From an uncultured virus (IMG/VR IMGVR_UViG_3300024346_006890) (Duplodnaviria; Heunggongvirae; Uroviricota; Caudoviricetes), in IMG/VR virus record IMGVR_UViG_3300024346_006890: a stretch of DNA of 20,000 bases. One strand, written 5' to 3'. Shown here one piece after another: positions 2,268 to 19,240 of this stretch. Within the stretch, counting starts at the first letter, position 1. The number at the start of each line of letters is the position of its first letter. A program made the translations under genes and the position numbers. Below the pieces are notes generated by a model, which had not been told where the DNA came from, ran no database searches, and was given only the letters and a program-made list of their open reading frames with translations.

Positions 2268-2278
2268 GGAATTAAAAT

Positions 2279-4954
2279 ATGTCAATGATAGACTATGTTA
2301 AAAAGCGAGAATACATTGTAACATTAAAGAACTTCGAAGACTTAGAAGCATTTTACGCTGAGATGCAAGACTTTGGAAAGTTTCCAGGAAGCTGTGCTCC
2401 TGTTCGAGAAGTCGATTGTATCGAGCAACGACCTAGTAGCAGAAGTACACATTATTTGTTAACTGACTGGGAAGCAAGTGAATTAAGAGACGACATTCGA
2501 GTTCAATCAGTTGAGTTACATCCGTCATTAAAAGGTATAACAGCAGGAGAATTTGCAGCTACAAAAACACAAACTTCTAGTAACTGGAATAAATCAACTA
2601 GTACTAGTAGCAATATGTTAAATTTTGCACTGCTTCGTTGTACAGAAGAAGTAAATAGAGCAGGGTGGGGAAGCGACGGAACACCCAATGCTACAGGAAC
2701 TGTAACATTAAGTGCCACTGGTAAAAATGTCGACGTTGTTATAGTTGACGGGGACGGAGTTGCACTAGGACATCCTGAGTATGCAGTAAACGCAGACGGC
2801 ACAGGTGGAACAAGATTTAATGAATATAACTGGTATCAACATAATTTAGCAGTTAAAGGAACAGCTCCCGGAACTTACACATATAGTCCATCAGTATACA
2901 GTAGTCATGCAACGCATACAACAGGAACTACCGCAGGTAATACGCAAGGATGGGCTAGAGATGCTAATCTTTACAATATATATTATCTAGCAGGTGACGG
3001 AGCAGATTACAACTTTCCTTGGGTTATGGACTATGTTAGAGAATTTCATAGAACTAAATCTATTAATCCGGAAACTGGGCGCAAGAATCCTACAATAACA
3101 AACAATAGCTGGGGAATGAGTATATTTCCGGCAGAATGGTCATTTTCCGATATCACAGCAGTAACTTATAGAGGAACTAGGTACACTCCTAGCGCAGGCG
3201 GTGCAACATATACAGGATATAGCGGAGTTTGTACTTCTAATGCTAGATTGGCTACACTTGTTGGTGAAGAAAATATCGGTAACAGAATTTCAACAGACGG
3301 GCCTTACACTCCGCCATCTGGTTCAATTTTATCTAAACCTACTACTTGGATACAAGAGGGACAATCAGCATACCTTGCAGATTTTGCACAACCGGATCCA
3401 AGTTACGAATTAACTATAAGTGGGCCGGCTGATATTAATTTAATTCATAATGTTGCCATGGACGCTGTTAGTGGTGCTATGTCAATCTCCGGACTTATTA
3501 CCGTTAGAGATCAATCATCAAATATTGTTCATACATTCTCCGATGCTGCAAGCAGCACCGATGGCGGAACTATTGAAATAAACGCATCAGCGACTAATAT
3601 TTCTTTACCTAACATTCAAACTTATACTGTAACATTTGATACAACTATAACTTCCGACGGACAAAATATTACCTATGCCACTGGCATGAGCTTAACTGTT
3701 ATAACAGAATCAACACCTGCAACAGCTACGGTAACAGAAATTACAAATTCGCTATTAGGTGCAGCATCATTAACACCGTCTACTACGCCAACTTCAGGAA
3801 ATAATGATGATGGTTTTTGGGAATTAACGCTACCTTTTAATATTTCATATCTCGGAAACAGTTATAATACAATTTATGTTGGTACTAATTCATATCTTAC
3901 ATTTACAGCAGGATCTGTTGCTTACTCAAGCCTCGGAGCAGCGAATCCTAATTTACCAAAAATAATGTGGAGTTCTGCAGATAACAGTGTTCAGCGTATA
4001 TATTATGGGGTAGAAGGTACTGCTCCAAATAGAGTTTACAGAATAAGAGTAGAAGGCAACGGTGGTGTTAGCGGTACATTAGGATCTCCTAATATGGTGT
4101 CTGAGTACGTTTTCTATGAGGATACTCCTAATCAGATAGATTTACAACTAGGTGCAAATAATAGAAAAACAACATCTAGCGGATTTACTTCAGGACAATT
4201 AAATTCCTGGGGATTTATTTCTGGACAACGTATACCTGCCAGAGTCGCTGCACTAGATGCCGATGTCGAAGATGCTATGGCAGAAGGTATTATCTACGTA
4301 GGAGCAGCTGGTAACGGATTATGGAAACACGATGTGCCGGGCGGTCTTGACTGGAATAATACTTTTGAGATGGGTACTAGATACCCAGGGCAAGTTTATT
4401 ATTACATGAGAGGTTCCAGTCCAACTGCAAATGATACAACTAGTCACCCTGACGGCACTTACGAATTACCAAATATTTGTGTAGGTGCAACAGATTTACA
4501 AACAATCGATCAAAAATCTTACTATAGCGATTGTGGCCCAGGTGTTGATATTTGGGCTCCAGGAACTGGTATATTGAGTGCATATAACTCCGGTGTTTCT
4601 GATCCTAGAAGTACTGGGACGACATATTATCTAGGAAAAATAAACGGAACTAGTATGGCTAGTCCTCAAGTCTGCGGAGTTCTTGCGTGTGCATTAGAAT
4701 TAAATCCTCATTGGAATCAGGTGCAGGCAAAAGCATTTATTACGGGTGTTGCTAAATCGAATCAGGTAATATCTACATCTGGCGGGCCGGCTGATATTAG
4801 AGATACTCAAAATGCTGCTGACAAATTCTTGTTTTACAGGAACGATCGTCCTAGTAGCGGTCAAACTTTACCAAAAAACACACAAGGTGTGCGCCCCAAC
4901 AATGGTTTAGCATGGCCGCGTCCTAAAATTTATAGATACGGTAGTTCATACTAA
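2279..4954 (+). CDS. Subtilisin-like serine protease (peptidase S8), paralog of the upstream gene, with an N-terminal propeptide-like region
   Basis: NVDVVIVDGDG, SHATHTTGT, AAGNG and NGTSMASPQV motifs. The N-terminus EYIVTLK resembles I9-type propeptides. AAGGA RBS just upstream of the ATG. Confidence 0.92.
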   Translation: MSMIDYVKKREYIVTLKNFEDLEAFYAEMQDFGKFPGSCAPVREVDCIEQRPSSRSTHYLLTDWEASELRDDIRVQSVELHPSLKGITAGEFAATKTQTSSNWNKSTSTSSNMLNFALLRCTEEVNRAGWGSDGTPNATGTVTLSATGKNVDVVIVDGDGVALGHPEYAVNADGTGGTRFNEYNWYQHNLAVKGTAPGTYTYSPSVYSSHATHTTGTTAGNTQGWARDANLYNIYYLAGDGADYNFPWVMDYVREFHRTKSINPETGRKNPTITNNSWGMSIFPAEWSFSDITAVTYRGTRYTPSAGGATYTGYSGVCTSNARLATLVGEENIGNRISTDGPYTPPSGSILSKPTTWIQEGQSAYLADFAQPDPSYELTISGPADINLIHNVAMDAVSGAMSISGLITVRDQSSNIVHTFSDAASSTDGGTIEINASATNISLPNIQTYTVTFDTTITSDGQNITYATGMSLTVITESTPATATVTEITNSLLGAASLTPSTTPTSGNNDDGFWELTLPFNISYLGNSYNTIYVGTNSYLTFTAGSVAYSSLGAANPNLPKIMWSSADNSVQRIYYGVEGTAPNRVYRIRVEGNGGVSGTLGSPNMVSEYVFYEDTPNQIDLQLGANNRKTTSSGFTSGQLNSWGFISGQRIPARVAALDADVEDAMAEGIIYVGAAGNGLWKHDVPGGLDWNNTFEMGTRYPGQVYYYMRGSSPTANDTTSHPDGTYELPNICVGATDLQTIDQKSYYSDCGPGVDIWAPGTGILSAYNSGVSDPRSTGTTYYLGKINGTSMASPQVCGVLACALELNPHWNQVQAKAFITGVAKSNQVISTSGGPADIRDTQNAADKFLFYRNDRPSSGQTLPKNTQGVRPNNGLAWPRPKIYRYGSSY

Positions 4955-4974
4955 ACTGCTCTCTCGTTTTTGGG

Positions 4975-4980
4975 TAAATA
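4975..4980 (+). promoter_or_regulatory. TAAATA motif, candidate phage late promoter
   Basis: Intergenic TAAATA 17 nt before the ATG at 4998. It resembles the core of the T4 late promoter TATAAATA, and the same motif recurs before other genes. Confidence 0.5.
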
Positions 4981-4997
4981 CATAAACCGGAGCTAAA

Positions 4998-7900
4998 ATG
5001 GCGCTATCTGTATGGACACAATTATCGGGATATAGTTTTGGGACTATAAATGAAAGACAAACTGTTAATATCCCACTTCCCGTTCTGTTTACCGCTAATG
5101 TAACATTTAAAGTTATTAGTGGTAAATTACCACCAGGTTTACGAATTGTAAATAGCAATATTGTCGGTACGCCTTACGAAGTTCCAAGAACTACAGATTT
5201 TAAATTTGTAATACGTGCCAGTAATACAGACGGAATTTCTGATAGAACTTTCTATTTCACAGTAGAAGGCGCCGACGAACCAAATTGGGTCACTCCTACC
5301 GGGCCGTTGCCTGTAGGAAGCAACGATGCATATTATATTTTAGATAGCAGTTATATAGATTTTCAACTAATAGTTAGTGATACAGATACTGCTACTGGAC
5401 AAAAACTTCACTTTTTTATTGCCAGCGACGAAGGCGAACTTCCTCCCGGACTTGTATTAACTACAGAAGGGCGTATTACTGGATTTGTACAACCGTTATT
5501 AGCTGTTCCACTAGCTGCTGGTAGCGGATCGTACGACGAGGGATTGTATGATCAAGTAGCATATGATTTTGGTTATCGACCAAGCAACGGATACGACACT
5601 TACGTATTTGATTTAACAGTATTCGACTTTAGCGTCCCAACCGGTCGACCTAGAAAACTTAATAGAAATTACGAATTCTTAGTAACTGTAACAGACGGTG
5701 ATACTATTGCTAAAAGAAAATTTAGAATATTTGTAGTCGGCGACGATTTCTTTAGAGCAGATAATATTGTTGAGCAAGCAGGAACTGGAGTATACACTGC
5801 TGACATAACTTACGTTAGGGCTCCGATATTTACTACGCCGAACTATTTAGGTTTACGTAGAGCAAACAATTACCAGACGTTTATGATTGAAACATATGAT
5901 GGGTTTACTGATCTAGGACCTATCACGTATCAGTTGTCTGATGTGAATTCTTTAATTAGCGGTATTTGTATTCGAGAATTGCCCACTGATAATATTGTAG
6001 GATCGTTGTTTATAAGATTAGAAAGATCGAGCGATGTGCCACAAGTAGGATACAAGATTAGTTTTAATGGTGAGTTTGACGGTGCTACAGGCGCAATCTA
6101 TGAAATTATAGATGTAGATGTGTTAGGTGGGGATATCTATAGACTCACTTTAGACACTGGGTTAGAAATGACTATTCCTAATAGTACTGGAATATACATG
6201 GGCACAATGTCTGAACTACCACCAAGGATGGAATTTGATTTTACTACTGGAGAAGTATTCGGTGTTGTTCCTTACCAACCAGCAATTACGCAAACTTACC
6301 AGTTTACAATTAAGGCATATCGATTTGGACAAGGCTCTGAAAAAGCAGTTAGTAGACGTGTGTTTACTGTTGACATATTAGGAGAAGTAGAAAGTGTAAT
6401 GAGTTGGATTAGTCCAACAGATTTAGGAACTATAGACTCTGGCTACGTAAGCACACTAGCAATAAAGGCAGCTTCTACATTATCAACTAGTGCAATTCTA
6501 TACACACTAGAAAGTGGCAGACTTCCTTTAGGATTAACTCTAAACTTAGATGGCGAAGTTACTGGAAAGGTTAATCAGTTATCTAGCTTGTTCCGATATA
6601 AAAGTTATTGGAAAAGCTCAACCTCGTACAACCCGCGAGATATTGTAAAAATAAACAACATACGAGGTATTAAGAGTGTAACTAGAAGAAAAAATATAGC
6701 TAGTGTTGTAACCAGCGTTGATCACGATTTCTTAACGGGCGACTTAGTTGAAATTGTGTCAGATGATTTAGGATTTAATTACTACAATGCAGTTGAGGTA
6801 GATATTTCTCCTATACAATTAGAATCATTTACTAGTATTACAGGATCCGGGCCTTATAGAATAACATTTGCAATACCTACTCAGAAAATTGCTCCATTGG
6901 CTCCTGTAGTTACATTAATAAGCGGAACAGCAATTTCAACTGCACCTGCTGTTTATAATAATGTTTCTGCATCAAGCTCAACAGGTTTGGGTACCGGTGC
7001 ACGATTTAGAGTTGAAAAAGGAAACAACGGAATTTTAGGCACACCGACATATGTTGGAGTGACAACAATATCATTGCTAGATCCCGGAACTGGGTATCTC
7101 CCAGGCGATAGGATAACTATTTCTGGTGCTGATCTCGGAGGGACTAACGGAACACACGATTTAACATTTACAACATCCACCGGTCTTGAATTTTATTACA
7201 GGATCAACGGAAACAGTAATACTAATTTCAATGGAAGATTCTTTGCAACATCTTCAACATCGAGTAGTATAACATTAAACTTCGAAGAAGATCCGGGAAC
7301 TTGGGGTTCAGGCACTATTAGTGTTACAACTGGTCCTGGCACCTATGAAGGACAAACTTTAATAATACCAGTAAACTACTTTAACTATCCAAATAAAGGC
7401 AAATCGTTATCGATGAAGGTAGCTAGCGGTACTACTTACAATGCTCCAATATATTACAAGGCAAATACTGCACACACTTCAGGATTAACATTTAACGCCG
7501 TTTACTGGGATCTATATCGGTTCCCTGAAGAAGATTTGTCATTAACTACTTTTGATCAGGGAAGTTTAACAATTGACGGTAACGAAACTTCGTTAGATAG
7601 AAAATACACGTTTACAGTACATGCTAGAGATCAATTAGGTTATAGTGCTGTTACTAAAACATTTACCTTAACTGTTAATACACCTAACGATACTTACTAC
7701 AGTAATATTAGTACTCGTCCATTTTTAAAACTTGAACAACGAGATATGTTCAAGGAATTTATAAATGACCCTTCTGTGTTTAATCCATCATTAATTTACA
7801 GGCCAACAGATACATACTTTGGGATACAACGAGATTTAAGGATGTTAGTGTTTGCAGGAATAGAAACTAAGTCTGCCGCAGAGTATGTAAGTGCGATGGG

Positions 7901-8540
7901 TAGAAATCACAGGACTAAGAGATTTAAATTTGGCGAAGTTAAGAAAGCAGTTGCTAAAACTCCAGGTACTAACGATGTAATTTACGAAGTGATATACTTA
8001 GAAATGTTAGACCCTCTAGAAAAAGATGGTAAACATTTACCGCTATCGCTTAAATTAAATTCGTCTAATGTGCAAATAAAAGTAGACCAAACTGGAGAAT
8101 TTTATAAAGGACCATTTGATACAGTTAACCCATACTGGAAACGTCCAATACCTTTATATGCGACAATAGACAGGAATGACATTTTTGCTGGCGACTCTGG
8201 TTCAAGAATTAAATTGCCATCGAGCATTAGTTTATGGCGGTATCGAATTAAAAATATGACTAACACCCAAAGTGAAAGAAACTACTTACCGCTTTGGATG
8301 CGTAGTATTCAACCGGAACAAACCCAAGAAATCAACTTTGTTCCAGCAGTACCATTATGTTACTGCAAACCAGGTGGAGCAGATGAGATTATACTGAATA
8401 TAAAAAATTATATTAAAAATAACCCATTTAACTTCAATTTATTAGATTATACCGTTGACAGATATATAATAGATTCTGTCGAGGGTGAGTACACAGATAA
8501 ATATCTTGTATTTAGAAACGATAGGACTACAATAACATGA
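4998..8540 (+). CDS. Large virion structural protein (baseplate/tail-associated candidate) with putative Ig (He_PIG-like) repeats
   Basis: 1180 aa with four SGxLPxGLxL...G-type repeats (SGKLPPGLRI, EGELPPGLVL, SELPPRMEF, SGRLPLGLTL), each followed by FxFxIxA-type strands. Beta-rich Thr/Gly centre and GGAG RBS. Confidence 0.7.
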   Translation: MALSVWTQLSGYSFGTINERQTVNIPLPVLFTANVTFKVISGKLPPGLRIVNSNIVGTPYEVPRTTDFKFVIRASNTDGISDRTFYFTVEGADEPNWVTPTGPLPVGSNDAYYILDSSYIDFQLIVSDTDTATGQKLHFFIASDEGELPPGLVLTTEGRITGFVQPLLAVPLAAGSGSYDEGLYDQVAYDFGYRPSNGYDTYVFDLTVFDFSVPTGRPRKLNRNYEFLVTVTDGDTIAKRKFRIFVVGDDFFRADNIVEQAGTGVYTADITYVRAPIFTTPNYLGLRRANNYQTFMIETYDGFTDLGPITYQLSDVNSLISGICIRELPTDNIVGSLFIRLERSSDVPQVGYKISFNGEFDGATGAIYEIIDVDVLGGDIYRLTLDTGLEMTIPNSTGIYMGTMSELPPRMEFDFTTGEVFGVVPYQPAITQTYQFTIKAYRFGQGSEKAVSRRVFTVDILGEVESVMSWISPTDLGTIDSGYVSTLAIKAASTLSTSAILYTLESGRLPLGLTLNLDGEVTGKVNQLSSLFRYKSYWKSSTSYNPRDIVKINNIRGIKSVTRRKNIASVVTSVDHDFLTGDLVEIVSDDLGFNYYNAVEVDISPIQLESFTSITGSGPYRITFAIPTQKIAPLAPVVTLISGTAISTAPAVYNNVSASSSTGLGTGARFRVEKGNNGILGTPTYVGVTTISLLDPGTGYLPGDRITISGADLGGTNGTHDLTFTTSTGLEFYYRINGNSNTNFNGRFFATSSTSSSITLNFEEDPGTWGSGTISVTTGPGTYEGQTLIIPVNYFNYPNKGKSLSMKVASGTTYNAPIYYKANTAHTSGLTFNAVYWDLYRFPEEDLSLTTFDQGSLTIDGNETSLDRKYTFTVHARDQLGYSAVTKTFTLTVNTPNDTYYSNISTRPFLKLEQRDMFKEFINDPSVFNPSLIYRPTDTYFGIQRDLRMLVFAGIETKSAAEYVSAMGRNHRTKRFKFGEVKKAVAKTPGTNDVIYEVIYLEMLDPLEKDGKHLPLSLKLNSSNVQIKVDQTGEFYKGPFDTVNPYWKRPIPLYATIDRNDIFAGDSGSRIKLPSSISLWRYRIKNMTNTQSERNYLPLWMRSIQPEQTQEINFVPAVPLCYCKPGGADEIILNIKNYIKNNPFNFNLLDYTVDRYIIDSVEGEYTDKYLVFRNDRTTIT
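8498..8503 (+). promoter_or_regulatory. TAAATA motif, candidate late promoter for the 8537 gene
   Basis: GATAAATA inside the 3' end of the upstream gene, 33 nt before the ATG at 8537, followed by an AGGA RBS. Confidence 0.4.
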
Positions 8541-9856
8541 CAAGTGCAATAATTTCGTCAACGATAGACGCAGATTTTCCAATTGCTGGCCAGGACAACG
8601 ATAGCCAGGGTTTTAGAGATAATTTCACAATTATCAAAGATGGACTAGCAACTGCTGGCGCCGAAATTACCGTGCTGCAAGATAATACTGCAAAAACTAA
8701 TGCAGACAATGATTTTAACGGCAATGTAATCGATAATGCTCAAACTAACAGACTTTTCGGAACAGTTTATACCACTACAACTACATCACTTACAAATGTC
8801 AGTTTAAATAACGGAGAATACCAAGATATTACCGTTAGTGGCAACCATACATTAACATTAGTTGATTGGCCAGGTACAGGTTTGTACGCTAAAATTAAAC
8901 TTGGATTGAAAAGTAACGGAGCAACAAGGACAATTACATTTGCTACTGAAGCTGGCGGAGTTATTAAAAAAGAAATCACTCAAGCGTTGGCTGCTGCAAC
9001 CGGAGCAGACAGATCACCGTCTAGCGGTGCCACAACTTCAGGTTATTTAAGTTTTCTAAAATCTAACTTAACTAATACATTCCAAGCGTCTGAAAGACTG
9101 TTCGGAACAGGATTAACAGGCGAAGTAGTAATTAATACCGTTACAGATTTAACAGGAATTACTGCTACATTGACGGCAGCTCCAATAACTAAAGAATATA
9201 CCGCAATTTCATCAGGCGCGAAAGTAACAACATCAGTAACTTCAGTTGGTATTACTAACGGTGACGAGGTTACATTAAGCGACACTACAGGCATTAGTGG
9301 TCTAGTAACTACAACTACATATTATGCATACGGTGCAGACGGTACTGGTTTCTACCTAGCAGAAAGTTACAGCGATGCAATTAGTGGAACTCCAGTTCCG
9401 GGATTATCTGGCGCATTCAGTGGGACTGCTACTGCAACATTACCGAACATGACTGGATCTAATCTAGTTACTGTTAGTTCTACTACTGGCATGTATACTA
9501 ATATGCCTATAGCGTTTAGTGGATCTAACTTTGGCGGTATTGTGTCATCAACCGATTATTATGTTACAGTAGTCGATTCAACACATATTAGATTATCTAT
9601 TACGCTAGGTGGTGCACCAATTACGTTAACTTCAGGTTCTGGCACATTAACTATTGTACCTAGAGAAACTGTTGCCGTCGGTTGTACTAGTCAAGTTATA
9701 ACTAGCGGGTCTGGGTTAACTATTACAACATCAGCTGATATGTTTCCAGTACCATTTACTGTAGATGCAGATGTTAACAAAACTAAAATAGTAGAAGCAT
9801 GGACGACAGACGGTGGTGCTACTATATTTTTAAAATACCTAGGTGAATTTGCATGA
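8537..9856 (+). CDS. Thr/Ser/Gly-rich probable virion structural protein
   Basis: 439 aa with N-terminal FPIAGQDNDSQGFRDNF and a short helical segment, then beta-rich repeats. ATGA overlap with the upstream structural gene. Confidence 0.6.
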   Translation: MTSAIISSTIDADFPIAGQDNDSQGFRDNFTIIKDGLATAGAEITVLQDNTAKTNADNDFNGNVIDNAQTNRLFGTVYTTTTTSLTNVSLNNGEYQDITVSGNHTLTLVDWPGTGLYAKIKLGLKSNGATRTITFATEAGGVIKKEITQALAAATGADRSPSSGATTSGYLSFLKSNLTNTFQASERLFGTGLTGEVVINTVTDLTGITATLTAAPITKEYTAISSGAKVTTSVTSVGITNGDEVTLSDTTGISGLVTTTTYYAYGADGTGFYLAESYSDAISGTPVPGLSGAFSGTATATLPNMTGSNLVTVSSTTGMYTNMPIAFSGSNFGGIVSSTDYYVTVVDSTHIRLSITLGGAPITLTSGSGTLTIVPRETVAVGCTSQVITSGSGLTITTSADMFPVPFTVDADVNKTKIVEAWTTDGGATIFLKYLGEFA

Positions 9857-10086
9857 TACATCCGTTAGCTGAAGATTTTACTAGTCTTAAAGATTCCGAA
9901 ATTGAAGGGAAGTTGCAAGACTTAACTAAAAAATATTGGCAAGCTAGTAACCCATTGGTTAAACAACAAATAGCAGTTTTCATCGATATCTACAAAACAG
10001 AAATGAATACTAGAAGATCGAAACAAATAGATCAACTATACCAAAAACGTGACAAAGGACTTGACAATTTAATTAAAGTTAATTAA
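9853..10086 (+). CDS. Hypothetical protein (77 aa, helical, charged)
   Basis: ATGA overlap with the previous gene, AGGTG RBS, and it fills the gap before the next gene. Confidence 0.75.
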   Translation: MIHPLAEDFTSLKDSEIEGKLQDLTKKYWQASNPLVKQQIAVFIDIYKTEMNTRRSKQIDQLYQKRDKGLDNLIKVN

Positions 10087-10089
10087 AAT
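10061..10089 (+). promoter_or_regulatory. Sigma70-type promoter upstream of the DnaE fragment
   Basis: TTGACA (10061-10066), 17-nt spacer, TAAAAT (10084-10089). The ATG follows 7 nt later. Confidence 0.8.
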
Positions 10090-10096
10090 ATGTCAT

Positions 10097-10597
10097 ATGA
10101 GAATTGACAAATTTGGTAATCCTATACATCAAGAGCAAGATCTTATCGATTTAATTTATAATAATAAAATCGATTACATTGATAAGATCGCTATCGACGA
10201 TACTGACTCAATTAAAGAATTTGCAAAAAACTGCGAATTAAATCTTAAAGTTTATCAAGATATTGATATAAGCGTATCAGAGTTTGACAAAATTTGTCAA
10301 TCTGAATGGTTTATTCCCAACGAATATAAAACTATGGATATCGAAGGTTTTTTAGTTGATCGATGCCCTAAGCAAAACTACCAACGCCTAATCGAAGAAC
10401 TACAAGAATATAAATCTAGAAATATGCTTGATTTATTAAAATGGTTGAAATATATCGTCGATACCTGTAAAGCAAACAATATTATCTGGGGAGTAGGACG
10501 TGGAAGTAGTGTTGCTAGTTACGTCTTATATCTTATCGGAGTACACAAAATTGACAGTTTAAAGTATAATTTAGACTGGCACGAATTCTTGAGATAA
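10097..10597 (+). CDS. Stand-alone fragment of DNA polymerase III alpha subunit (DnaE-like, GRGS region)
   Basis: The C-terminal half, RLIEELQEY...YIVDTCKANNIIWGVGRGSSVASYVLYLIGVHKIDSLKYNLDWHEFLR, matches the DnaE pattern GxGRGSxxGSLVAYxLGITxxDPLxxxLxFERFL. The protein is only 166 aa. Confidence 0.85.
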   Translation: MRIDKFGNPIHQEQDLIDLIYNNKIDYIDKIAIDDTDSIKEFAKNCELNLKVYQDIDISVSEFDKICQSEWFIPNEYKTMDIEGFLVDRCPKQNYQRLIEELQEYKSRNMLDLLKWLKYIVDTCKANNIIWGVGRGSSVASYVLYLIGVHKIDSLKYNLDWHEFLR

Positions 10598-10624
10598 GTA
10601 CAACTATAAACAAGGAGAATAGCT

Positions 10625-10846
10625 ATGGCTATGAAACAACCAGCACGTAAAGTGTATAGATCAATGCAAGGTAAAGAAGTTGACCTAGATAAACTTCGAA
10701 ATAAAAACGAAACAACCTTAGCAGTAGGCAATGTTAGAATGAATGCTCGCGGAGACGAATTAGGCCCCGGCGGTAAAATTGTTCGAAAACGAGAAGATGT
10801 AATGGACGAATATTATACCGGAAGGCCGCCTTCGAAAGACGATTAA
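10625..10846 (+). CDS. Hypothetical phage protein (73 aa, basic)
   Basis: Strong AAGGAG RBS. Preceded by TAAGTA (10595-10600), a variant of the TAAATA motif. Confidence 0.8.
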   Translation: MAMKQPARKVYRSMQGKEVDLDKLRNKNETTLAVGNVRMNARGDELGPGGKIVRKREDVMDEYYTGRPPSKDD

Positions 10847-10847
10847 T

Positions 10848-11612
10848 ATGCAAAAAGGTATTGTCGGACTAGCTTTAATACTATGTGTTCACGCATCGGC
10901 CCTTGCACAATATACCGGCTTTCAACGAAGTCTCAATGATAAACCGTGGGGAGTTGTTCGAGTAGATAACGGTAATGGTCCTGTAGATAGAGGACAACTA
11001 AGCGAACGATTCGAGGTAAGGCAAGGTGACTGCGGATCACAGCCGGGCTGGAGTGATTGTGCAATGGATCGGGAGCGTTCAGAAATGAGCGAACTTAAAC
11101 CTTATACACAACTAAATCAACCAACTTGGTATGCTTGGAGTGTGTGGTTCGACCATAGTTGGCCTGATATTAGCCCGGTAACTACAACTATCGGACAATT
11201 TCATCAAAGAAACCAAAGTGTTCCTGCTGTACTTTTTATTCAAAGAGATGGCAGATATTTTCTAAGATTAGAGAGTGCTAAAAACTTATATCCTGACGAT
11301 CATGTAAGGACATTAGTGCCGGCACACAGTCTTAAAGGAAGATGGCACAGAATAGTAGTGTTTGCTAATTGGAGCACAGACTCTAACGGTATCTTACAAG
11401 TTTGGGTTAATGGTGTACAACGATTAGATCATAGAGGTCCTAATACAATTAACACTACGCCGGTATATTTTAAATATGGAATATACCGAAGTTTTGTTAG
11501 TAGGGTTCCTAACAGGCCGCCACATATAGTATATATAGACGAAGTTAGAAAAGGTCCTTCAAGAGAAAGTGTGGATTACCTAGTTAATCCTAAATTACAA
11601 CCTGTTAATTAA
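10848..11612 (+). CDS. Secreted polysaccharide-lyase-like protein (heparin lyase I / Polysacc_lyase-type beta-jelly roll)
   Basis: Signal peptide (MQKGIVGLALILCVHASALA). Motifs RFEVRQGDC, RERSE, WYAWS, IGQFHQ, GRWH, LQVWVNG and YFKYGIYRS are typical of this lyase fold. Confidence 0.75.
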   Translation: MQKGIVGLALILCVHASALAQYTGFQRSLNDKPWGVVRVDNGNGPVDRGQLSERFEVRQGDCGSQPGWSDCAMDRERSEMSELKPYTQLNQPTWYAWSVWFDHSWPDISPVTTTIGQFHQRNQSVPAVLFIQRDGRYFLRLESAKNLYPDDHVRTLVPAHSLKGRWHRIVVFANWSTDSNGILQVWVNGVQRLDHRGPNTINTTPVYFKYGIYRSFVSRVPNRPPHIVYIDEVRKGPSRESVDYLVNPKLQPVN

Positions 11613-11627
11613 GAGGAATTTATAAAC

Positions 11628-11963
11628 GTGAATGTAGTTAAAGGCAAATTAAAACCATTAAAAGATAATGTATTAGTTACTGATATGAGTTTCGAGGAAC
11701 AAAAAACTAGCAGTGGCATTATTATCCAAAGTGACGACGGCAAAAGCCACGGTGTTAAACCGAGATGGGCTAAAGTTTGGGCGATTGGGCCCGAACAGCA
11801 AGATGTAAAAGTAGGAGAATGGATTTATATCGAGCACGGCCGTTGGACTAGAGGTATTAAAGTCGAAGACGGCGATAATGAGATTATTGTTCGTAGAGTC
11901 GATACAACCGCAATTTTATTAACAGCAGAAGAAAAACCAACCGACGTCTATTTACCATCATGA
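11628..11963 (+). CDS. groES: Co-chaperonin GroES (Cpn10)
   Basis: LKPLKDNVLV, mobile loop EQKTSSGIII, and VWAIGP...VKVGE. GTG start with GAGGA RBS. Confidence 0.9.
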   Translation: MNVVKGKLKPLKDNVLVTDMSFEEQKTSSGIIIQSDDGKSHGVKPRWAKVWAIGPEQQDVKVGEWIYIEHGRWTRGIKVEDGDNEIIVRRVDTTAILLTAEEKPTDVYLPS

Positions 11964-12367
11964 CTAATCCTTTTAAAGATCAAGAAAAATTTATGCTTGC
12001 ATGTGACCAGAGCGTTAACGCATTTAACGAGTCACAATTTAATCTCTACACAACACTAATTCAAGAAGAAGTTGACGAACTTTGGGCCGCTAACGCTAAT
12101 GCAGATAAAACAGAATGCTTAGACGCACTGATTGACATTTTAGTTGTTACAATTGGTGCTATTCATTCGATGGGTGCAGACGGAGAAGGTGCATGGAAAG
12201 AGGTTATGCGCACCAACTTTGCTAAGATTGATCCCGAAACTGGTAAGGTACGTAAACGTGAAGACGGTAAGGTATTAAAGCCAGAAGGATGGCAACCTCC
12301 ACGGTTAGGACATTTTGTAAGCAAACAGATGTTAGGAAATGGATATATCCCGCCCGACTTGGGTTAA
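11960..12367 (+). CDS. MazG-like / PRA-PH-like nucleoside triphosphate pyrophosphohydrolase
   Basis: LIQEEVDEL...ECLDALIDILVV metal-binding pattern, then EVMRTNFAK and REDGKVLKPEGW. Confidence 0.85.
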   Translation: MTNPFKDQEKFMLACDQSVNAFNESQFNLYTTLIQEEVDELWAANANADKTECLDALIDILVVTIGAIHSMGADGEGAWKEVMRTNFAKIDPETGKVRKREDGKVLKPEGWQPPRLGHFVSKQMLGNGYIPPDLG

Positions 12368-12376
12368 CTAACACAT

Positions 12377-12404
12377 ATAGGGTCTTGACAGACCCTATTT
12401 TTTT
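12377..12404 (+). terminator. Intrinsic terminator overlapping the next promoter
   Basis: ATAGGGTCT-TGAC-AGACCCTAT 9-bp stem followed by a T-run, starting 10 nt after the stop at 12367. Confidence 0.8.
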
Positions 12405-12413
12405 CTATATAAT
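12385..12413 (+). promoter_or_regulatory. Consensus sigma70 promoter
   Basis: TTGACA (12385-12390), 17-nt spacer, TATAAT (12408-12413). ATG at 12420. Confidence 0.88.
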
Positions 12414-12419
12414 AAACTG

Positions 12420-12887
12420 ATGAAAACCGGATTTACATGCTCAACTTTCGACTTGTTTCATGCAGGTCATATCATAATGCTTAAAGAAGCAAAGCAACAA
12501 TGCGACTATTTGATCGTAGGTCTACAGACAGATCCCACTATCGATCGTCCAGACACTAAAAACAAACCAGTTCAAAGCATGTTTGAACGTTTTGTTCAAC
12601 TCGAAGCTTGTAAGTATGTGGACGAAATCGTTCCCTACTCTACAGAAAAAGAGCTTATAGACATCTTGCTTTCTTATCCTATTGATGTTAGAATACTAGG
12701 AAGTGAATACGAGAATCGATCATTCACTGGCAGACAGGAATGTGTCGACAAAGGCATTAAGTTTTATTTTAACCAGCGTAAGCATACATTCTCCACTACT
12801 GAACTAAGACAGCGTGTAGTTGATGCCGAAGCAGACAAACTAATGAGGAAAGTAAATGACTTGCAAAGTGTGCCAAAAAGAGTATAG
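12420..12887 (+). CDS. Cytidylyltransferase-family protein (TagD / glycerol-3-phosphate cytidylyltransferase-like)
   Basis: HxGH signature in TFDLFHAGH, plus DYLIVGL, KYVDEIVPY and C-terminal STTELR. Confidence 0.88.
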   Translation: MKTGFTCSTFDLFHAGHIIMLKEAKQQCDYLIVGLQTDPTIDRPDTKNKPVQSMFERFVQLEACKYVDEIVPYSTEKELIDILLSYPIDVRILGSEYENRSFTGRQECVDKGIKFYFNQRKHTFSTTELRQRVVDAEADKLMRKVNDLQSVPKRV

Positions 12888-13014
12888 CCCTGCCTGTGAT
12901 TGGCAACAAGGACGTTGTCCGCATCATCCGCCATACATTAACCCTCATTCAATGAGATTTTTAAATTTGTTCAACGCTATTAAAGGATTTTTTAAACGTG
13001 GAAGTTCAACCTAA
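12856..13014 (+). CDS. Small Cys/His-rich protein (52 aa, not in ORF track)
   Basis: Manual translation MTCKVCQKEYSPACDWQQGRCPHHPPYINPHSMRFLNLFNAIKGFFKRGSST. GAGGA RBS at 12845-12849. Fills an otherwise empty gap. Confidence 0.7.
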   Translation: MTCKVCQKEYSPACDWQQGRCPHHPPYINPHSMRFLNLFNAIKGFFKRGSST

Positions 13015-13165
13015 AGACACAAGCAAAGGACATTTTTATGTTAGCCTTGGTAAAAGTGCAATTCGTATTGTTGCAGGCGGCTGTTTGATTACAGGTAACT
13101 TGCTAATGGCGGGTGTTTGTCTTATTCTAGCAGAAGTGCTAGGCGTAGTAGAGGAGTTAGTATAA
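12998..13165 (+). CDS. Small membrane protein (55 aa, not in ORF track)
   Basis: Manual translation MEVQPKDTSKGHFYVSLGKSAIRIVAGGCLITGNLLMAGVCLILAEVLGVVEELV. GTG start, AAAGGA RBS, and its TAA overlaps the next ATG (TAATG). Confidence 0.75.
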   Translation: MEVQPKDTSKGHFYVSLGKSAIRIVAGGCLITGNLLMAGVCLILAEVLGVVEELV

Positions 13166-13389
13166 TGCCAACAGTATATACAGAAGTTGAAGTTGATGTC
13201 GATTTAGACGATTTCGACACTGACGATTTAATCGAAGAACTAGAACGACGTGGATCGTTACCATTTGAAGGCAGCATCGATGCTAAAGAAGTCTTAGAGG
13301 CAATTTGGCTCAAGCGTCGACTAGGCAATCAAGACTATCAACGCGAGCTCGATCAACTGATTTATGCAGTATTGGGACGAGTAGTATGA
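13165..13389 (+). CDS. Acidic hypothetical protein (74 aa)
   Basis: Start reassigned to the ATG at 13165 (GAGGAG RBS at 13151-13156, TAATG coupling). Begins MPTVYTEVEVDVDLDDFDTDDLIEELERRG. Confidence 0.8.
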   Translation: MPTVYTEVEVDVDLDDFDTDDLIEELERRGSLPFEGSIDAKEVLEAIWLKRRLGNQDYQRELDQLIYAVLGRVV

Positions 13390-13577
13390 CTTCGGATAAA
13401 GACATACAAGCACGTATGGGCCAATTAATGGTAATTATAGATCAGACATTAATGCTATGCGACAACGAACAAGATCAATTAATGTTAGCCTGTGCAATGT
13501 TACAGCGCACAACTGAAATATTTGATGATATATTAGGCGAAGAAGGCCGTAAAAAAATGTTTAAGGATATGGTATGA
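13386..13577 (+). CDS. Hypothetical protein (63 aa)
   Basis: Start reassigned to the ATG at 13386. ATGA overlaps on both ends. Confidence 0.75.
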   Translation: MTSDKDIQARMGQLMVIIDQTLMLCDNEQDQLMLACAMLQRTTEIFDDILGEEGRKKMFKDMV

Positions 13578-14491
13578 AAGAACTATGGGTAGAAAAATAT
13601 AGACCTAGAACACTAGAAGGTTATGTATTTAAAGACGAGACATTAAAATCCCAAATTAAAAAATGGGTTGATGAAAAAGCTATCCCTCATTTATTGTTTA
13701 GCGGTAACGCAGGAACTGGAAAAACAACTCTTGCAAAGGTACTGTTAAACGAAATTGGCGTCGAAGGTACTGATGTACTATTTGCTAACGGCTCTAAAGA
13801 AGGTCGTAAAATTGAATGGGTTGACAAACTAATTGGTTTCTGTCAGACAATGCCGTTTGGCGATTACAAGGTTGTAATCATTGACGAAGCAGATTATATG
13901 AACAAAGAATCAGTTCAACCTGCTCTTCGAAACTTGATGGAAGAATATAGCCACAGTGTTCGATTTATTCTTACTTGCAATTACCCGCATAAAATTATCA
14001 CACCTGTTAAAAGCAGATGCCAAGAAGTTCATATTGAAAAAACCGACATTACTGAATTCACTGCCCGTGTAGCAACAATCCTAGTTGAAGAAAATATCGA
14101 ATTCGATTTAGATACATTAGATACATATGTTAAAGGAACGTATCCAGATTTACGCAAATGTATTAATAATGTACAAATGAACAGCTTAGATGGTAATTTA
14201 AAATTCCCCGACTCAGTAGATTCTACCGCAGATTATAGAATTGAGATGGTTGATTTATTTAAAAAGGGAAAAATTAATGAGGCACGTAAACTGTTGTGCA
14301 GCCAAGCCCGTCCAGAAGAAATGGAAGAAGTTTATCGTTGGATGTACGACAATGTCAATTTATTCGGCAACGACGAAACAACACAAGATAACGCCATCCT
14401 CATAATTAAACAAGGTTTGGTAGATCACAACTCAGTAAGTGATCCTGAAATTAACTTAGCAGCAACTTTAATTAGACTTTCGAGACTATAA
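13574..14491 (+). CDS. Clamp loader AAA+ subunit (RFC small subunit / T4 gp44-like)
   Basis: LWVEKYRP, Walker A GNAGTGKT, Walker B IIDEAD, FILTCNY, SRC motif and DLRKCIN. Confidence 0.95.
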
Positions 14492-14493
14492 AA

Positions 14494-14817
14494 ATGACAT
14501 ATATTGTTACCGAAAATTGCATTAATTGTAAACATTCTGATTGCGTTGAAGTTTGCCCAGTTGATTGTTTTCATGAAGGCCCAAATTTTTTAGCTATTAA
14601 TCCAGACGAATGTATTGATTGCGGAGTCTGTGTTCCAGAATGCCCTGTTGATGCCATCGTAGCAGATAATGACGTATCAGTTGATACTAAATTTTGGATC
14701 GATCTTAATAAAAAATTAAGTGGCAAATGGCCAGTAATTACTAGAAAAAAGCCAGCCTTGCCGGATGCAGACGAGTGGAAAGATGTTCCTAACAAACTAA
14801 ATTTGCTTAAAGAATGA
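14494..14817 (+). CDS. fdxA: 7Fe-type ferredoxin (FdxA / Azotobacter FdI family)
   Basis: [26 protein letters not shown]...[19 protein letters not shown], and C-terminal WPVIT...PDADEW. Confidence 0.93.
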
Positions 14818-15368
14818 AAGAAAAATTTATCGATTTGTATATGGATTGGGCAACTAGGCTTGCACAATTAAGTCATGCCAAGCGCCTACAAGTAGGTGCG
14901 GTTATCGTTAAAGACGATACAGTTATCAGTTATGGTTATAACGGTATGCCTGCAGGATGGGATAACGATTGCGAAGACAAAAAGTATGATCCCGGAGCAG
15001 GTGGATGGCTTAGTCCCGAAGAGTTTAATGAACAATACCCATACGAGGAACTACACGGAGAGTTCCAAGACCATAAAGTGCGGTACGGTTTAAAAACTAA
15101 ACCAGAAGTTCTACATGCTGAAAGTAATGCTATTGCAAAACTAGCAAAGTCTAGCAACAGTGGTCTCGAAGCCGACATCTTTATTACTCATGCTCCGTGT
15201 ATGGAATGTGCTAAACTCATTTATCAGTCAGGTATTAAACGTGTGTTTTACAATAAACACTATCGCGACGATGCAGGGGTGGCATTTTTACAAAAATCAG
15301 GTGTGTTTGTATCCACACCTGAAATGCGAGAGTTTGCAAAAAAGACTAGGGGATCTAAGATCCCCTAA
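14814..15368 (+). CDS. dCMP deaminase
   Basis: VGAVIV, GYNGMP, and zinc motifs LHAESNAI and PCMECAK. Confidence 0.93.
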
Positions 15369-17523: not shown

Positions 17524-18032
17524 TGTGGCAGTTCCAGTGGATGGTCGGGTTGATTCCAGATGAGATGCTAAGTCTCATCTATTGGATTATTATTGCAGCA
17601 GGCATTACCGGATTAATTGCTGGTTGGTTAGGCAAGTGGGTTCCATTTTATGGGAAATATGCAGGCGTATTAAAACCAATAGGTATTATACTACTAGCAT
17701 TAGGTGTTTGGTTACGTGGCGGGTACGACACAGAAATGGCATGGCGAGATAAAGTTAACAAATTAGAAGAACAAGTAAAAGTAGCGGAAGAAAAAGCAAA
17801 CAATAAAACTGTAGAAATACAAAAAGTAATTGTAGAAAAAACTAAAGTTATTAGAGAAAAGGGCAAAACACAAATTCAATATGTTGATCGAGTAGTTACT
17901 CAAGATAAAGAAGTAATAAAGTTTATTGAAAATTGTCCTATTCCTAGAGTTATTATAGAAGAACATAATAAAGCAACTATCCCCCCAGAGTCTGTTAAAG
18001 AATTAAACAAAGCAGCGGAGAGTAAAAAATGA
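17523..18032 (+). CDS. Membrane-anchored coiled-coil protein, Rz / i-spanin-like
   Basis: Two N-terminal hydrophobic segments, then a charged helical region (WRDKVNKLEEQVKVAEEKAN) with one Cys. Directly upstream of a lipoprotein gene with ATGA overlap. Confidence 0.6.
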   Translation: MWQFQWMVGLIPDEMLSLIYWIIIAAGITGLIAGWLGKWVPFYGKYAGVLKPIGIILLALGVWLRGGYDTEMAWRDKVNKLEEQVKVAEEKANNKTVEIQKVIVEKTKVIREKGKTQIQYVDRVVTQDKEVIKFIENCPIPRVIIEEHNKATIPPESVKELNKAAESKK

Positions 18033-18295
18033 AACTCTATCCTGTAGTACTTGTGTTATTATTAACAGGATGTATTGGTACAGCACCAGTTAAACAAAAA
18101 TGGCCAGAAGCACCTCAGACATTAACTGAAAAATGTGAAGATTTAAAAAAGATAGAAGGCGATAGTGTAGCTATTACCGAAATGTTAAAAGTTGTTATAC
18201 ACAATTATACATTGTACTATGAATGCTCTACAAAAGTAGAGGGATGGAAAGAATGGTATAATGAACAAAAGAAAATATACGAAAGTGTAAAATGA
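18029..18295 (+). CDS. Lipoprotein, Rz1 / o-spanin-like
   Basis: Lipobox LLTG-C, Pro-rich start (APVKQKWPEAP), and two more Cys (EKC, YYEC). Confidence 0.7.
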   Translation: MKLYPVVLVLLLTGCIGTAPVKQKWPEAPQTLTEKCEDLKKIEGDSVAITEMLKVVIHNYTLYYECSTKVEGWKEWYNEQKKIYESVK

Positions 18296-18516
18296 AGGCA
18301 ACAATCCTAATTGTGTTACTGCTAACTGGCTGTGCTAGTTTTAATCCCGATGTTGAAAAATCAACGTCAAGGGATAAAACAATGGAGCGCATGGCTAAAA
18401 CTGCATTAATAAACGAAATGTTAAATAGTTCTGATCCGGTAGTAAGACAAGAAGGTGCTAGGATTGCTAGAGAATTTATAAACAACACCGAAAAGAAAAA
18501 TCTTTTTGGCTTTTAA
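18292..18516 (+). CDS. Second small lipoprotein
   Basis: MKATILIVLLLTG-C lipobox and ATGA overlap with the previous gene. Confidence 0.75.
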   Translation: MKATILIVLLLTGCASFNPDVEKSTSRDKTMERMAKTALINEMLNSSDPVVRQEGARIAREFINNTEKKNLFGF

Positions 18517-18527
18517 AGGAGCGTATT

Positions 18528-18647
18528 ATGTTAGATATATTATTTTGGATTGCGGTAGGAGCATTTATAGGTTGGAATTTTCCGCAGCCTTTTTGGGCTA
18601 AAGCAATACAAGAAAAAATTCAAACTATGTTAGCCAAGAAACAATAA
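18528..18647 (+). CDS. Small single-pass membrane protein (39 aa, not in ORF track)
   Basis: Manual translation MLDILFWIAVGAFIGWNFPQPFWAKAIQEKIQTMLAKKQ with AAGGAG RBS. Confidence 0.75.
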   Translation: MLDILFWIAVGAFIGWNFPQPFWAKAIQEKIQTMLAKKQ

Positions 18648-18657
18648 GGAGTGAACA

Positions 18658-19221: not shown

Positions 19222-19240
19222 CATATATTAGGAGCGAATA

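What the first reader, a model, noticed from the sequence alone, without database searches (positions are those of the whole stretch)
10097..10597. Stand-alone DnaE piece ending just before the catalytic aspartates: candidate split family-C polymerase
Seen: a 166-aa ORF with its own sigma70 promoter and clean start and stop. It carries the GRGS motif and ends at WHEFLR. No continuation or intein motif follows. Known: in DnaE this segment (FERFL) is followed within a few residues by PDIDxD with two catalytic Asp, and a full PHP domain precedes it. Inference: the polymerase is split, with a partner gene starting near PDID elsewhere in the genome, and assembles non-covalently. Alternatively the fragment modulates the host replisome. 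Short DnaE-like ORFs may already be annotated in related phages, so the novelty is mainly functional.
Basis: partly seen in the sequence, partly recalled or inferred. Interest (0 to 1): 0.75.

Follow-up and report, generated by a model that had tools for sequence, protein, structure and literature searches.

The report
N-half of split phage mini-polymerase III
This short gene encodes the first half of a two-piece, stripped-down DNA polymerase III that a large group of giant phages carry beside their main polymerase; the two-piece arrangement was described in print in 2021, so this copy is an ordinary member of a known but never biochemically tested system.

Summary
The ORF at 10097-10597 (+, 166 aa) is real. 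It matches only the first part of the Pol III alpha palm (PF07733 model 16-94 of 260, E 2.3e-11). It matches phrog_11127 over its full length (E 1.1e-41).

RaK2, PA5oct, SCTP-2 and the IMG/VR records G008, G011 and G013 each carry a separate 190-215 aa gene that begins at (MP)DIDIDxxD, about 5 to 184 kb away.

Iyer et al. 2021 (PMC7824862; passages read) already describe this as a minimal Pol III alpha split into two distantly encoded proteins, found in group 2.2 jumbo phages next to a family B polymerase.

- **Break point:** fixed. 35 of 37 aligned N-halves end at EF[LM]R.
- **Selection:** omega is 0.08-0.32.
- **Co-fold:** the window N-half with the G011 C-half scores 0.90 against 0.01 for the best control.
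- **Not shown:** the window's own genome is not held, so its own partner was not seen.
- **Extras:** a small ORF (phrog_14844) follows the N-half in 88 of 89 loci. A TTGACA-17-TAnnnT promoter, conserved in 76 of 81 distinct upstream regions, lies 6-8 nt before the ATG in 60 of those 76.

Verdict: already known, low to moderate interest.

The parts
10097..10597 (+). N-terminal (NTP-binding) half of the split minimal DNA polymerase III alpha; 166 aa; ends ...WHEFLR then TAA
   Evidence: ORF. PF07733 model 16-94, E 2.3e-11. phrog_11127 full length, E 1.1e-41. At least 7991 relatives of 91-291 aa. Model pLDDT 89, and the top 11 Foldseek PDB hits are Pol III alpha/DnaE1, followed by three further family C chains including PolC.
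10496..10507 (+). Codons of the GRGS motif (residues 134-137) inside the invariant WGVGRGSS loop
   Evidence: G132, G134, R135, G136, S137 and S138 are invariant in 37 of 37 aligned N-halves. In the co-fold, residues 127-140 touch residues 2-10 (PDIDIDF) of the C-half.
10061..10089 (+). Sigma-70-type promoter-like site TTGACA-17-TAAAAT, embedded in the last codons and the stop of the upstream ORF; the -10 ends 7 nt before the ATG
   Evidence: 11 of 12 matches. TTGACA with exactly 17 nt and TAnnnT in 76 of 81 distinct upstream 60-mers of relatives. The Asp codon is GAC in 76 of 76 (35% background) and the Leu codon is CTT in 73 of 76 (13% background). Function is inferred, not shown.
10625..10846 (+). 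Small conserved ORF (73 aa, phrog_14844) that always follows the N-half; function unknown; possibly an accessory of the same system
   Evidence: phrog_14844, E 1.1e-13. The same family follows the N-half in RaK2, MIJ3 and SCTP-2. A homologue lies directly downstream in 88 of 89 IMG/VR loci that have downstream sequence. No Pfam family.
13574..14491 (+). T4 gp44-type clamp loader subunit. This is context, marking the conserved replication neighbourhood of the N-half.
   Evidence: phrog_168, E 7.5e-80. The same order (N-half, small ORF, GroES-like, clamp loader) occurs in RaK2, MIJ3, SCTP-2 and G008.

Best explanation
The ORF encodes the N-terminal subunit of the two-gene minimal DNA polymerase III alpha of group 2.2 jumbo phages. 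These are T4-like phages that also carry a family B polymerase and a clamp loader.

The N-half supplies the helical part of the Pol-beta-like palm, including the GRGS triphosphate-binding loop. A separately encoded C-half of about 190-215 aa begins at MPDIDIDF. It supplies the beta-sheet with the three invariant aspartates near its start, a fourth invariant aspartate in GYxKxD, and a reduced finger region (IRPxK, KSHAxxY).

The two proteins are proposed to assemble non-covalently, without an intein, into one active site of about 360 residues. That enzyme lacks the PHP, thumb, beta-clamp-binding and OB domains.

**Shown here:** family membership, a fixed break point, purifying selection, the presence of both halves in relatives, and a confident predicted interface.

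**Inferred:** that this phage has its own C-half, that the pair binds in the cell, and that it polymerises DNA in an auxiliary replication or repair role beside the family B enzyme, as Iyer et al. suggested.
For: **Family and anatomy**
- PF07733 model 16-94 only. phrog_11127 over the full length.
- The profile of N-halves ends at M. tuberculosis DnaE1 406. The profile of C-halves starts at DnaE1 412-424 (SMPDIDIDFDDRR) and continues collinearly at 638-667 and 773-787.
- In G013, PF07733 positions 19-95 fall in the N-half, and positions 98-114 fall weakly (E 0.068) at the start of the C-half.

**Partner in relatives**
- RaK2 ORF124 matches phrog_11778 at E 5.9e-104.
- 96 phage records hold a C-half.
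- 25 of the 40 listed N-half records also appear among the 60 listed C-half records. The other 15 cannot be judged, because 36 C-half records were not listed.
- G011 and G013 hold both halves. G012, G014 and G015, which are 22-26% complete, do not. G008 holds both.
- D3, D5, D7, D68, R135 with P136, K166 and H168 (G011 numbering) are invariant in 30 of 30 C-halves.

**Break point and selection**
- 35 of 37 aligned N-halves end at EF[LM]R. One has 5 extra residues, and one was cut short by my coordinates.
- All 16 relatives tested have TAA right after FLR. Omega is 0.08-0.32 in the 24 listed divergent pairs with dS < 2.

**Co-fold**
- Window N-half with the G011 C-half: 0.91, 0.90 and 0.90, with the best of 3 controls at 0.01. 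That mark was reached by 116 of 157 solved complexes and 2 of 215 mismatched pairs.
- The runs share at least 99% of contacts, and the partner's pLDDT is 91.
- Folded alone, the first 70 residues of the C-half have pLDDT of only 45-66.

**Context**
- The N-half lies beside a clamp loader. The C-half of G011 lies among a DnaB-like helicase, a primase and a second helicase.
- RaK2, MIJ3, SCTP-2, G011 and G013 all have a family B polymerase.

**Prior description:** Iyer et al. 2021, passages read.
Against: - The window's own genome is not held. A 61-kb metagenome contig that reaches into this gene could not be searched. The partner in this phage is therefore unseen.
- The co-fold used a stand-in C-half from G011, whose own N-half is 64% identical to the window's. 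Solved Pol III alpha structures contain the same contacts within one chain, so the pass may reflect that likeness rather than binding by this pair.
- No Pfam model reaches its cut-off on the C-half: PF17657 gives 14.4 bits against a cut-off of 22. Its link to Pol III alpha rests on short collinear motifs (E 0.002 to PDB) and on weak Foldseek hits (E 2e-3 to 0.27, TMq 0.3-0.44).
- No thumb, clamp-binding or exonuclease part was found, so processive DNA synthesis is not obvious.
- My four literature searches found no biochemical or genetic test of the system.
Confidence: 0.85

Rival explanations
1. The two halves do assemble, but the enzyme is not a templated DNA polymerase. It could be a Pol-beta-fold nucleotidyltransferase with another job, such as untemplated tailing, primer handling, or making or modifying a nucleotide.
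For: The thumb and most of the fingers are missing. The C-half has only about 60 residues between DIDID and the GYxKxD aspartate, and about 66 between that and IRPxK. No clamp-binding or proofreading part was found. The phages already have a family B replicase.
Against: The retained finger motifs (IRPxK, KSHAxxY) align with Pol III alpha finger segments. Both genes sit in replication neighbourhoods: clamp loader, primase and helicases.
Confidence: 0.12
2. The N-half works alone, for example as a decoy that binds host Pol III partners or nucleotides and so modulates the host replisome.
For: It is a separate gene, far from the C-half and with its own conserved promoter. It folds confidently on its own, with pLDDT 89.
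Against: Every sufficiently complete relative tested also has a C-half. The invariant residues of the N-half lie at the predicted interface with the C-half's DIDID strand. It carries none of the Pol III alpha regions known to bind tau, beta or epsilon; that these lie in the C-terminal region and the PHP domain is recalled knowledge, not tested here.
Confidence: 0.03
3. The ORF is a decaying remnant of a full-length phage or host dnaE.
For: It covers only about 80 of the 260 positions of PF07733 and lacks the catalytic residues.
Against: - At least 7991 relatives are of the same length class.
- The stop position is fixed in 35 of 37 aligned N-halves.
- Omega is 0.08-0.32.
- Neighbours and promoter are conserved.
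Confidence: 0.01

Closest known systems
Split minimal DNA polymerase III alpha of group 2.2 jumbo phages (Iyer, Anantharaman, Krishnan, Burroughs, Aravind 2021, Viruses 13:63; PHROGs phrog_11127 and phrog_11778)
   Same: Everything tested matches. There is a short N-terminal NTP-binding protein, and a C-terminal Mg- and template-binding protein encoded by a distant gene. The setting is phage-only, with a family B polymerase and a T4-type clamp loader.
   Different: Nothing in kind. This copy comes from an uncultured phage. Its closest relative in a cultured phage is SCTP-2, at 36.6% identity. Its own C-half was not seen.
Bacterial replicative Pol III alpha (DnaE, family C polymerase; PDB 2hnh, 2hpi, 5lew)
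   Same: The N-half aligns with E. coli residues 320-392, including the GRGS loop and FERFL. The C-half keeps PDIDIDF, RP and KSHA. The best fold matches of both halves are Pol III alpha chains.
   Different: There are two polypeptides totalling about 360 residues, against about 1160. PHP, thumb, beta-binding and OB domains are absent (for the N-half; for three whole phage genomes). The domain boundaries of E. coli Pol III alpha are recalled, not computed here.
Cyanobacterial split DnaE joined by a naturally split intein
   Same: A family C polymerase encoded by two distant genes.
   Different: The cyanobacterial halves carry intein pieces and are ligated by trans-splicing. I saw this in search listings only; the details are recalled. 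Here the N-half stops directly after EFLR and the C-half starts at MPDIDIDF, which leaves no room for an intein. The cyanobacterial split lies much later in the protein (recalled), and both of its halves are large.

Membership tests
Split minimal Pol III alpha, N-terminal unit (phrog_11127; Iyer et al. 2021) | Full-length sequence match to the family of short N-terminal units | tested here: met
   phrog_11127, E 1.1e-41, protein 3-166 on profile 9-171 of 171.
Split minimal Pol III alpha, N-terminal unit (phrog_11127; Iyer et al. 2021) | Carries the NTP-binding GRGS segment of the Pol III alpha palm and stops before the catalytic aspartates | tested here: met
   PF07733 model 16-94 only. GRGS is invariant in 37 of 37. 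The alignment ends at E. coli 392, Taq 454 and Mtb 406, just before SMPDIDIDF at Mtb 412.
Split minimal Pol III alpha, N-terminal unit (phrog_11127; Iyer et al. 2021) | A separate, distantly encoded C-terminal unit (phrog_11778) in the same genome | not testable with these tools
   The own assembly is not held. The window has none. G001 and four other fragments have none. The feature is met in RaK2, PA5oct, SCTP-2, G008, G011 and G013.
Split minimal Pol III alpha, N-terminal unit (phrog_11127; Iyer et al. 2021) | Host genome is a group 2.2 jumbo phage with a T4-type clamp loader and a family B polymerase | tested here: inconclusive
   The clamp loader (phrog_168, E 7.5e-80) and the RaK2/PA5oct gene order are present in the window. 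No family B polymerase lies in these 20 kb. It is present in RaK2, MIJ3, SCTP-2, G011 and G013.
Bacterial DnaE / Pol III alpha (full-length family C replicase) | N-terminal PHP domain | tested here: not met
   No PHP family at E <= 1 in the ORF. Residues 1-86 match nothing in Pfam.
Bacterial DnaE / Pol III alpha (full-length family C replicase) | Catalytic aspartates, fingers and C-terminal domains in the same polypeptide | tested here: not met
   The ORF ends at model position 94 of 260. Nothing related lies downstream.
Intein-split DnaE (cyanobacterial type) | Intein N-piece after the break in the first half, and intein C-piece before the second half | tested here: not met
   TAA follows EFLR directly in the window and in 16 of 16 relatives. 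C-halves begin 0-16 residues before DIDID.

The most novel reading that the evidence does not exclude
The system may have more parts and more regulation than the published two-protein picture.

First, the small basic protein (phrog_14844) follows the N-half in 88 of 89 loci, and also in RaK2, PA5oct-type and SCTP-2 phages. It could be a third subunit, for example standing in for the missing thumb or for a clamp adaptor.

Second, the N-half may be made from a leaderless early mRNA. A conserved TTGACA-17-TAAAAT promoter is written into the last codons of the upstream gene, and its -10 ends 6-8 nt before the ATG.
Probability: 0.2. Interest if true: 0.55.

Novelty: already known. Interest (0 to 1): 0.3.

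Why it matters
If the two halves really form an active enzyme of about 360 residues, it would be the smallest family C polymerase core known. Iyer et al. propose it as a model for the ancestral form of the bacterial replicase. It is also very common: at least 7991 N-half and 7308 C-half clusters turned up in the searches, both capped at 8000 candidates. Its role beside a family B replicase is untested. This window adds one more uncultured member and no new principle. The conserved small neighbour and the leaderless-type promoter are cheap, testable additions for anyone who takes up the biochemistry.

Tried and rejected
- **Own genome:** not held. The nearest record, G001, is a 24-kb fragment that ends inside the gene and holds no C-half.
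- **61-kb metagenome contig (L062):** it ends inside the gene at 100% identity, but it could not be searched because the record is not held.
- **Genome-contig scan with the N-half:** no relative found.
- **megablast of 9000-12000 against phages:** no match.
- **Search for fused N+C forms ('longer'):** 5 hits. The three I read are not N+C fusions (two have extra sequence upstream, one continues into ribonucleotide reductase), and the precomputed Pfam domains of the other two point to fusions with unrelated families. None is an N+C fusion, but the tool calls this weak evidence.
- **Matching 'longest_contig' lengths between the N and C hit lists,** to find pairs on one contig: no match among the 120 rows listed for each.
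- **Three 22-26% complete IMG/VR records with an N-half (G012, G014, G015)** and four C-half fragments (G006, G007, G009, G010) held only one half. This is as expected if the halves lie far apart, and is uninformative.
- **Earlier notes of this scan:** nothing for this genome or sequence.
- **ESM Atlas for the small ORF:** only unnamed viral clusters.
- **Supplement of Iyer et al.:** not readable. I could not check which accessions they list, or whether they mention the small neighbour.
- **Decaying remnant and stand-alone decoy readings:** rejected, as set out under the rival explanations.

Full report
**1. The observation**

The + strand holds an ORF at 10097-10597 (166 aa, ATG start, TAA stop). 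It contains WGVGRGSS at residues 131-138 and ends ...LDWHEFLR.

Pfam finds a single family, PF07733 (DNA_pol3_alpha), at E 2.3e-11. The match covers protein 87-165 on model positions 16-94 of 260, and no PHP or finger family appears at E <= 1. Against solved structures the single sequence aligns weakly with E. coli Pol III alpha 323-392 and Thermus aquaticus 410-454. A profile of 37 family members raises this to E 6.6e-4. It ends at E. coli 392, Taq 454 and M. tuberculosis DnaE1 406.

After the stop come 27 nt with an AAGGAG, and then an unrelated small ORF. So the description is correct: this is a stand-alone piece of the Pol III alpha palm that stops just before the catalytic aspartates.

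**2. What it is**

PHROGs matches the whole protein to phrog_11127, a 171-position family labelled DNA polymerase (E 1.1e-41).

tblastn against 50,697 phage records finds 139 records. The best are jumbo phages: Salicola SCTP-2 (36.6% over 98% of the query), the Pseudomonas PA5oct/MIJ3 group, Agrobacterium Atu_ph07, Sinorhizobium Phosso, Xanthomonas XacN1 and the RaK2/121Q-type phages of enterobacteria.

In SCTP-2, MIJ3 and RaK2 the homologue is a separate gene of 181, 169 and 172 aa. It is followed by a small ORF, a GroES-like gene and a gp44-type clamp loader. The window has the same order:
- N-half
- small ORF (phrog_14844)
- an inserted polysaccharide lyase gene
- GroES-like gene
- MazG-like gene
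- cytidylyltransferase-like gene
- clamp loader (phrog_168, E 7.5e-80)
- ferredoxin-like gene
- dCMP deaminase
- PhoH on the minus strand
- two virion proteins

In the three complete phage genomes PF07733 hits once each, on model positions 19-97 only. All three have a family B polymerase.

**3. The partner**

A weak finger-domain hit in RaK2 led to ORF124, which is 213 aa and annotated DNA polymerase. Its sequence begins ...KARTDIDIDVKD and matches phrog_11778 at E 5.9e-104.

tblastn with it finds 96 phage records, from the same groups of jumbo phages. Of the 40 N-half records listed, 25 are also among the 60 C-half records listed. The other 15 cannot be judged, because 36 C-half records were not listed.

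The halves are never adjacent. The distances are about 15 kb (XacN1), 33 kb (RaK2), 43 kb (PA5oct), 116 kb (SCTP-2), 182 kb (Atu_ph07) and 224 kb (Phosso).

Among uncultured relatives:
- G011 is 270 kb and 71% complete, and its N-half is 64% identical to the window's. It has a 192-aa C-half starting MPDIDIDF, about 184 kb from the N-half.
- G013 is 345 kb and 94% complete, and has a 191-aa C-half about 175 kb away.
- G008 has both halves about 5 kb apart.
- Three other records with an N-half, at 22-26% completeness, had no C-half. That says little, given these distances.

In 30 aligned C-halves the following are invariant: the three aspartates of DIDID, the aspartate of GYxKxD, R and P of IRPxK, and K and H of KSHA.

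A profile of the C-halves hits Pol III alpha chains best. M. tuberculosis DnaE1 scores E 0.0021, with collinear pieces at 412-424 (SMPDIDIDFDDRR), 473-525, 638-667 and 773-787. The N-half profile ends at DnaE1 406. The split therefore falls in the few residues between FL and SMPDID.

Both families are very large.

**4.

*Break point.* 35 of 37 aligned N-halves end at EF[LM]R. One (G008) has five more residues, and one was cut two residues short by the coordinates I gave. All 16 relatives examined at the DNA level have TAA directly after FLR.

*Selection.* 49 of 136 gene pairs had dS < 2. Among the 25 lowest-dS pairs listed, one was nearly identical (dN 0, dS 0.021) and the other 24 gave omega 0.08-0.32. 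Pairs with the window itself were saturated, with dS above 2.3 or undefined.

*Co-fold.* The window N-half (alignment A4) was folded with the G011 C-half (alignment A3).
- The scores were 0.91, 0.90 and 0.90, against 0.01 for the best of 3 controls. That mark was reached by 116 of 157 solved complexes and 2 of 215 mismatched pairs.
- The runs share at least 99% of contacts, and the partner's pLDDT is 91.
- The interface joins N-half residues 127-140 (the GRGS loop) with C-half residues 2-10 (PDIDIDF). N-terminal N-half residues (1-31, 60-72) meet C-half residues 40-48 and 62-65.
- The pass must be read with care. The partner is a stand-in from a relative, and solved Pol III alpha structures hold the same contacts inside one chain. 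It shows likeness to the intact palm, not binding of this pair.

*Folds alone.* The N-half folds confidently on its own (pLDDT 89). The first 70 residues of the C-half do not (pLDDT 45-66). This fits a sheet that needs the other half, but it is not proof.

*Fold matches.* For the N-half model the top 11 Foldseek PDB hits are Pol III alpha/DnaE1 chains, and three further family C polymerase chains (including PolC) follow (E 7e-3 to 1.0, TMq 0.36-0.47). For the C-half model the top 14 are all family C polymerases (E 2e-3 to 0.27, TMq 0.30-0.44). No hit reaches E <= 0.001.

*Fused forms.* A search among longer proteins gave 5 hits, and none is an N+C fusion. This is weak evidence.

**5. Comparison with what is known**

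Iyer et al. 2021 (PMC7824862) state the following in the passages I read in sections 3.2, 3.4.1 and 3.5 and in the legend of Figure 3. I did not see the figures, and the supplement is unreadable.
[quoted passage not shown] - These phages have none of the other Pol III domains.
- The enzyme might cooperate with the family B enzyme in synthesis of one strand, or in repair.

This is the same system. RefSeq and several depositors already label both genes DNA polymerase or DnaE-like.

Four full-text searches found no experimental study. I can say only that none turned up in those searches.

The other natural split of a family C polymerase is the cyanobacterial DnaE joined by a split intein. I saw it in listings only, and the details are recalled. 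It differs because it has intein pieces and a different split site.

**6. How it most likely works**

- Shown: the family, the fixed split, the constraint on the sequence, the presence of both halves in relatives, and the replication neighbourhoods of both genes. The N-half lies by the clamp loader. The G011 C-half lies among a DnaB-like helicase, a primase and a second helicase. The RaK2 C-half lies 1.4 kb from the gp61 primase gene.
- Inferred: the halves assemble without an intein into one Pol-beta-like active site. The N-half holds the incoming triphosphate, and the C-half holds the metals and the template.
- Inferred further, and less surely: the pair extends DNA in an auxiliary role. With no thumb, clamp-binding or proofreading part found, a non-processive or non-templated transferase cannot be excluded.

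**7. Two additions beyond the published picture, as far as I could see**

*(a) A constant small neighbour.* The small ORF at 10625-10846 (73 aa, phrog_14844, no Pfam family) follows the N-half in RaK2, MIJ3 and SCTP-2. It also follows it in 88 of 89 IMG/VR loci that have downstream sequence. The G008 copy did not reach the PHROG threshold.

Of 81 distinct upstream 60-mers, collapsed from 93 loci, 76 have TTGACA, exactly 17 nt, and TAnnnT.
- The site lies in the last codons of the upstream ORF.
- The Asp codon inside it is GAC in 76 of 76, against 35% of Asp codons in the N-half genes.
- The Leu codon is CTT in 73 of 76, against 13%.
- The -10 begins with the upstream TAA stop in 74 of 76.
- The -10 ends 6-8 nt before the ATG in 60 of 76.

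These loci are related, so the counts are not independent events. Still, the fixed synonymous positions argue for a signal at the DNA level. The spacing and the lack of a Shine-Dalgarno sequence suggest a leaderless or nearly leaderless transcript. This is inference.

**8. Verdict**

The partner in this very genome was not seen, because the genome is not held. The kind is already known, and this is one more uncultured member. Interest is low to moderate.

Noticed in passing
window 10625-10846 (+): A small basic ORF (73 aa, phrog_14844, no Pfam family) directly follows the N-half. It does so in the window, in RaK2, MIJ3 and SCTP-2, and in 88 of 89 IMG/VR loci with downstream sequence. It may be an accessory of the mini-polymerase, or simply a conserved operon neighbour.
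   Followed up: partly
window 10061-10096 (+): TTGACA-17-TAAAAT sits in the last codons and stop of the upstream 77-aa ORF, 7 nt before the ATG and with no Shine-Dalgarno sequence. It is conserved with fixed synonymous positions in 76 of 81 distinct relatives, which suggests a leaderless early transcript.
   Followed up: partly
window 10848-11612 (+): A 254-aa ORF with a signal-peptide-like N-terminus is a polysaccharide lyase (PF14099, E 1.5e-34). It sits between the small ORF and the GroES-like gene, where RaK2, MIJ3, SCTP-2 and G008 have nothing comparable. Its first part has higher G+C (0.44-0.46, against 0.27-0.34 over the N-half gene). It looks like an inserted auxiliary or depolymerase gene.
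   Followed up: partly
window 3-9856 (+): Four large ORFs in a row (754+, 891, 1180 and 439 aa). The first two match phrog_9158 (unknown function), and the last two match no PHROG or Pfam family. They are probably virion or tail-fibre proteins.
   Followed up: no
window 11960-15368 (+): A run of auxiliary metabolism genes lies between the GroES-like gene and PhoH. It holds a MazG-like pyrophosphohydrolase, a cytidylyltransferase-like protein (PF01467; phrog_7878 heptose adenylyltransferase-like), a ferredoxin with DUF3470, and a dCMP deaminase.
   Followed up: no
window 18029-19786 (+): A possible lysis cluster: a spanin-like ORF (phrog_2425/456), a DUF4337 protein, and a holin-like ORF (phrog_3427).
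   Followed up: no
LR588166.1 (MIJ3) 124889-128666, loci L012, L013, L016: The family B polymerase match of the PA5oct-type phage is spread over two open frames (825 and 379 aa) about 2.5 kb apart. The main polymerase of that phage may therefore also be split or interrupted.
   Followed up: no
protein P0243 (666 aa, one ENA contig): An N-half continues in frame, right after EEFLE, into the C-terminal part of a ribonucleotide reductase (PF02867). It is a single contig, so this could be a real fusion, a remnant of an insertion, or an assembly or gene-call artefact.
   Followed up: no
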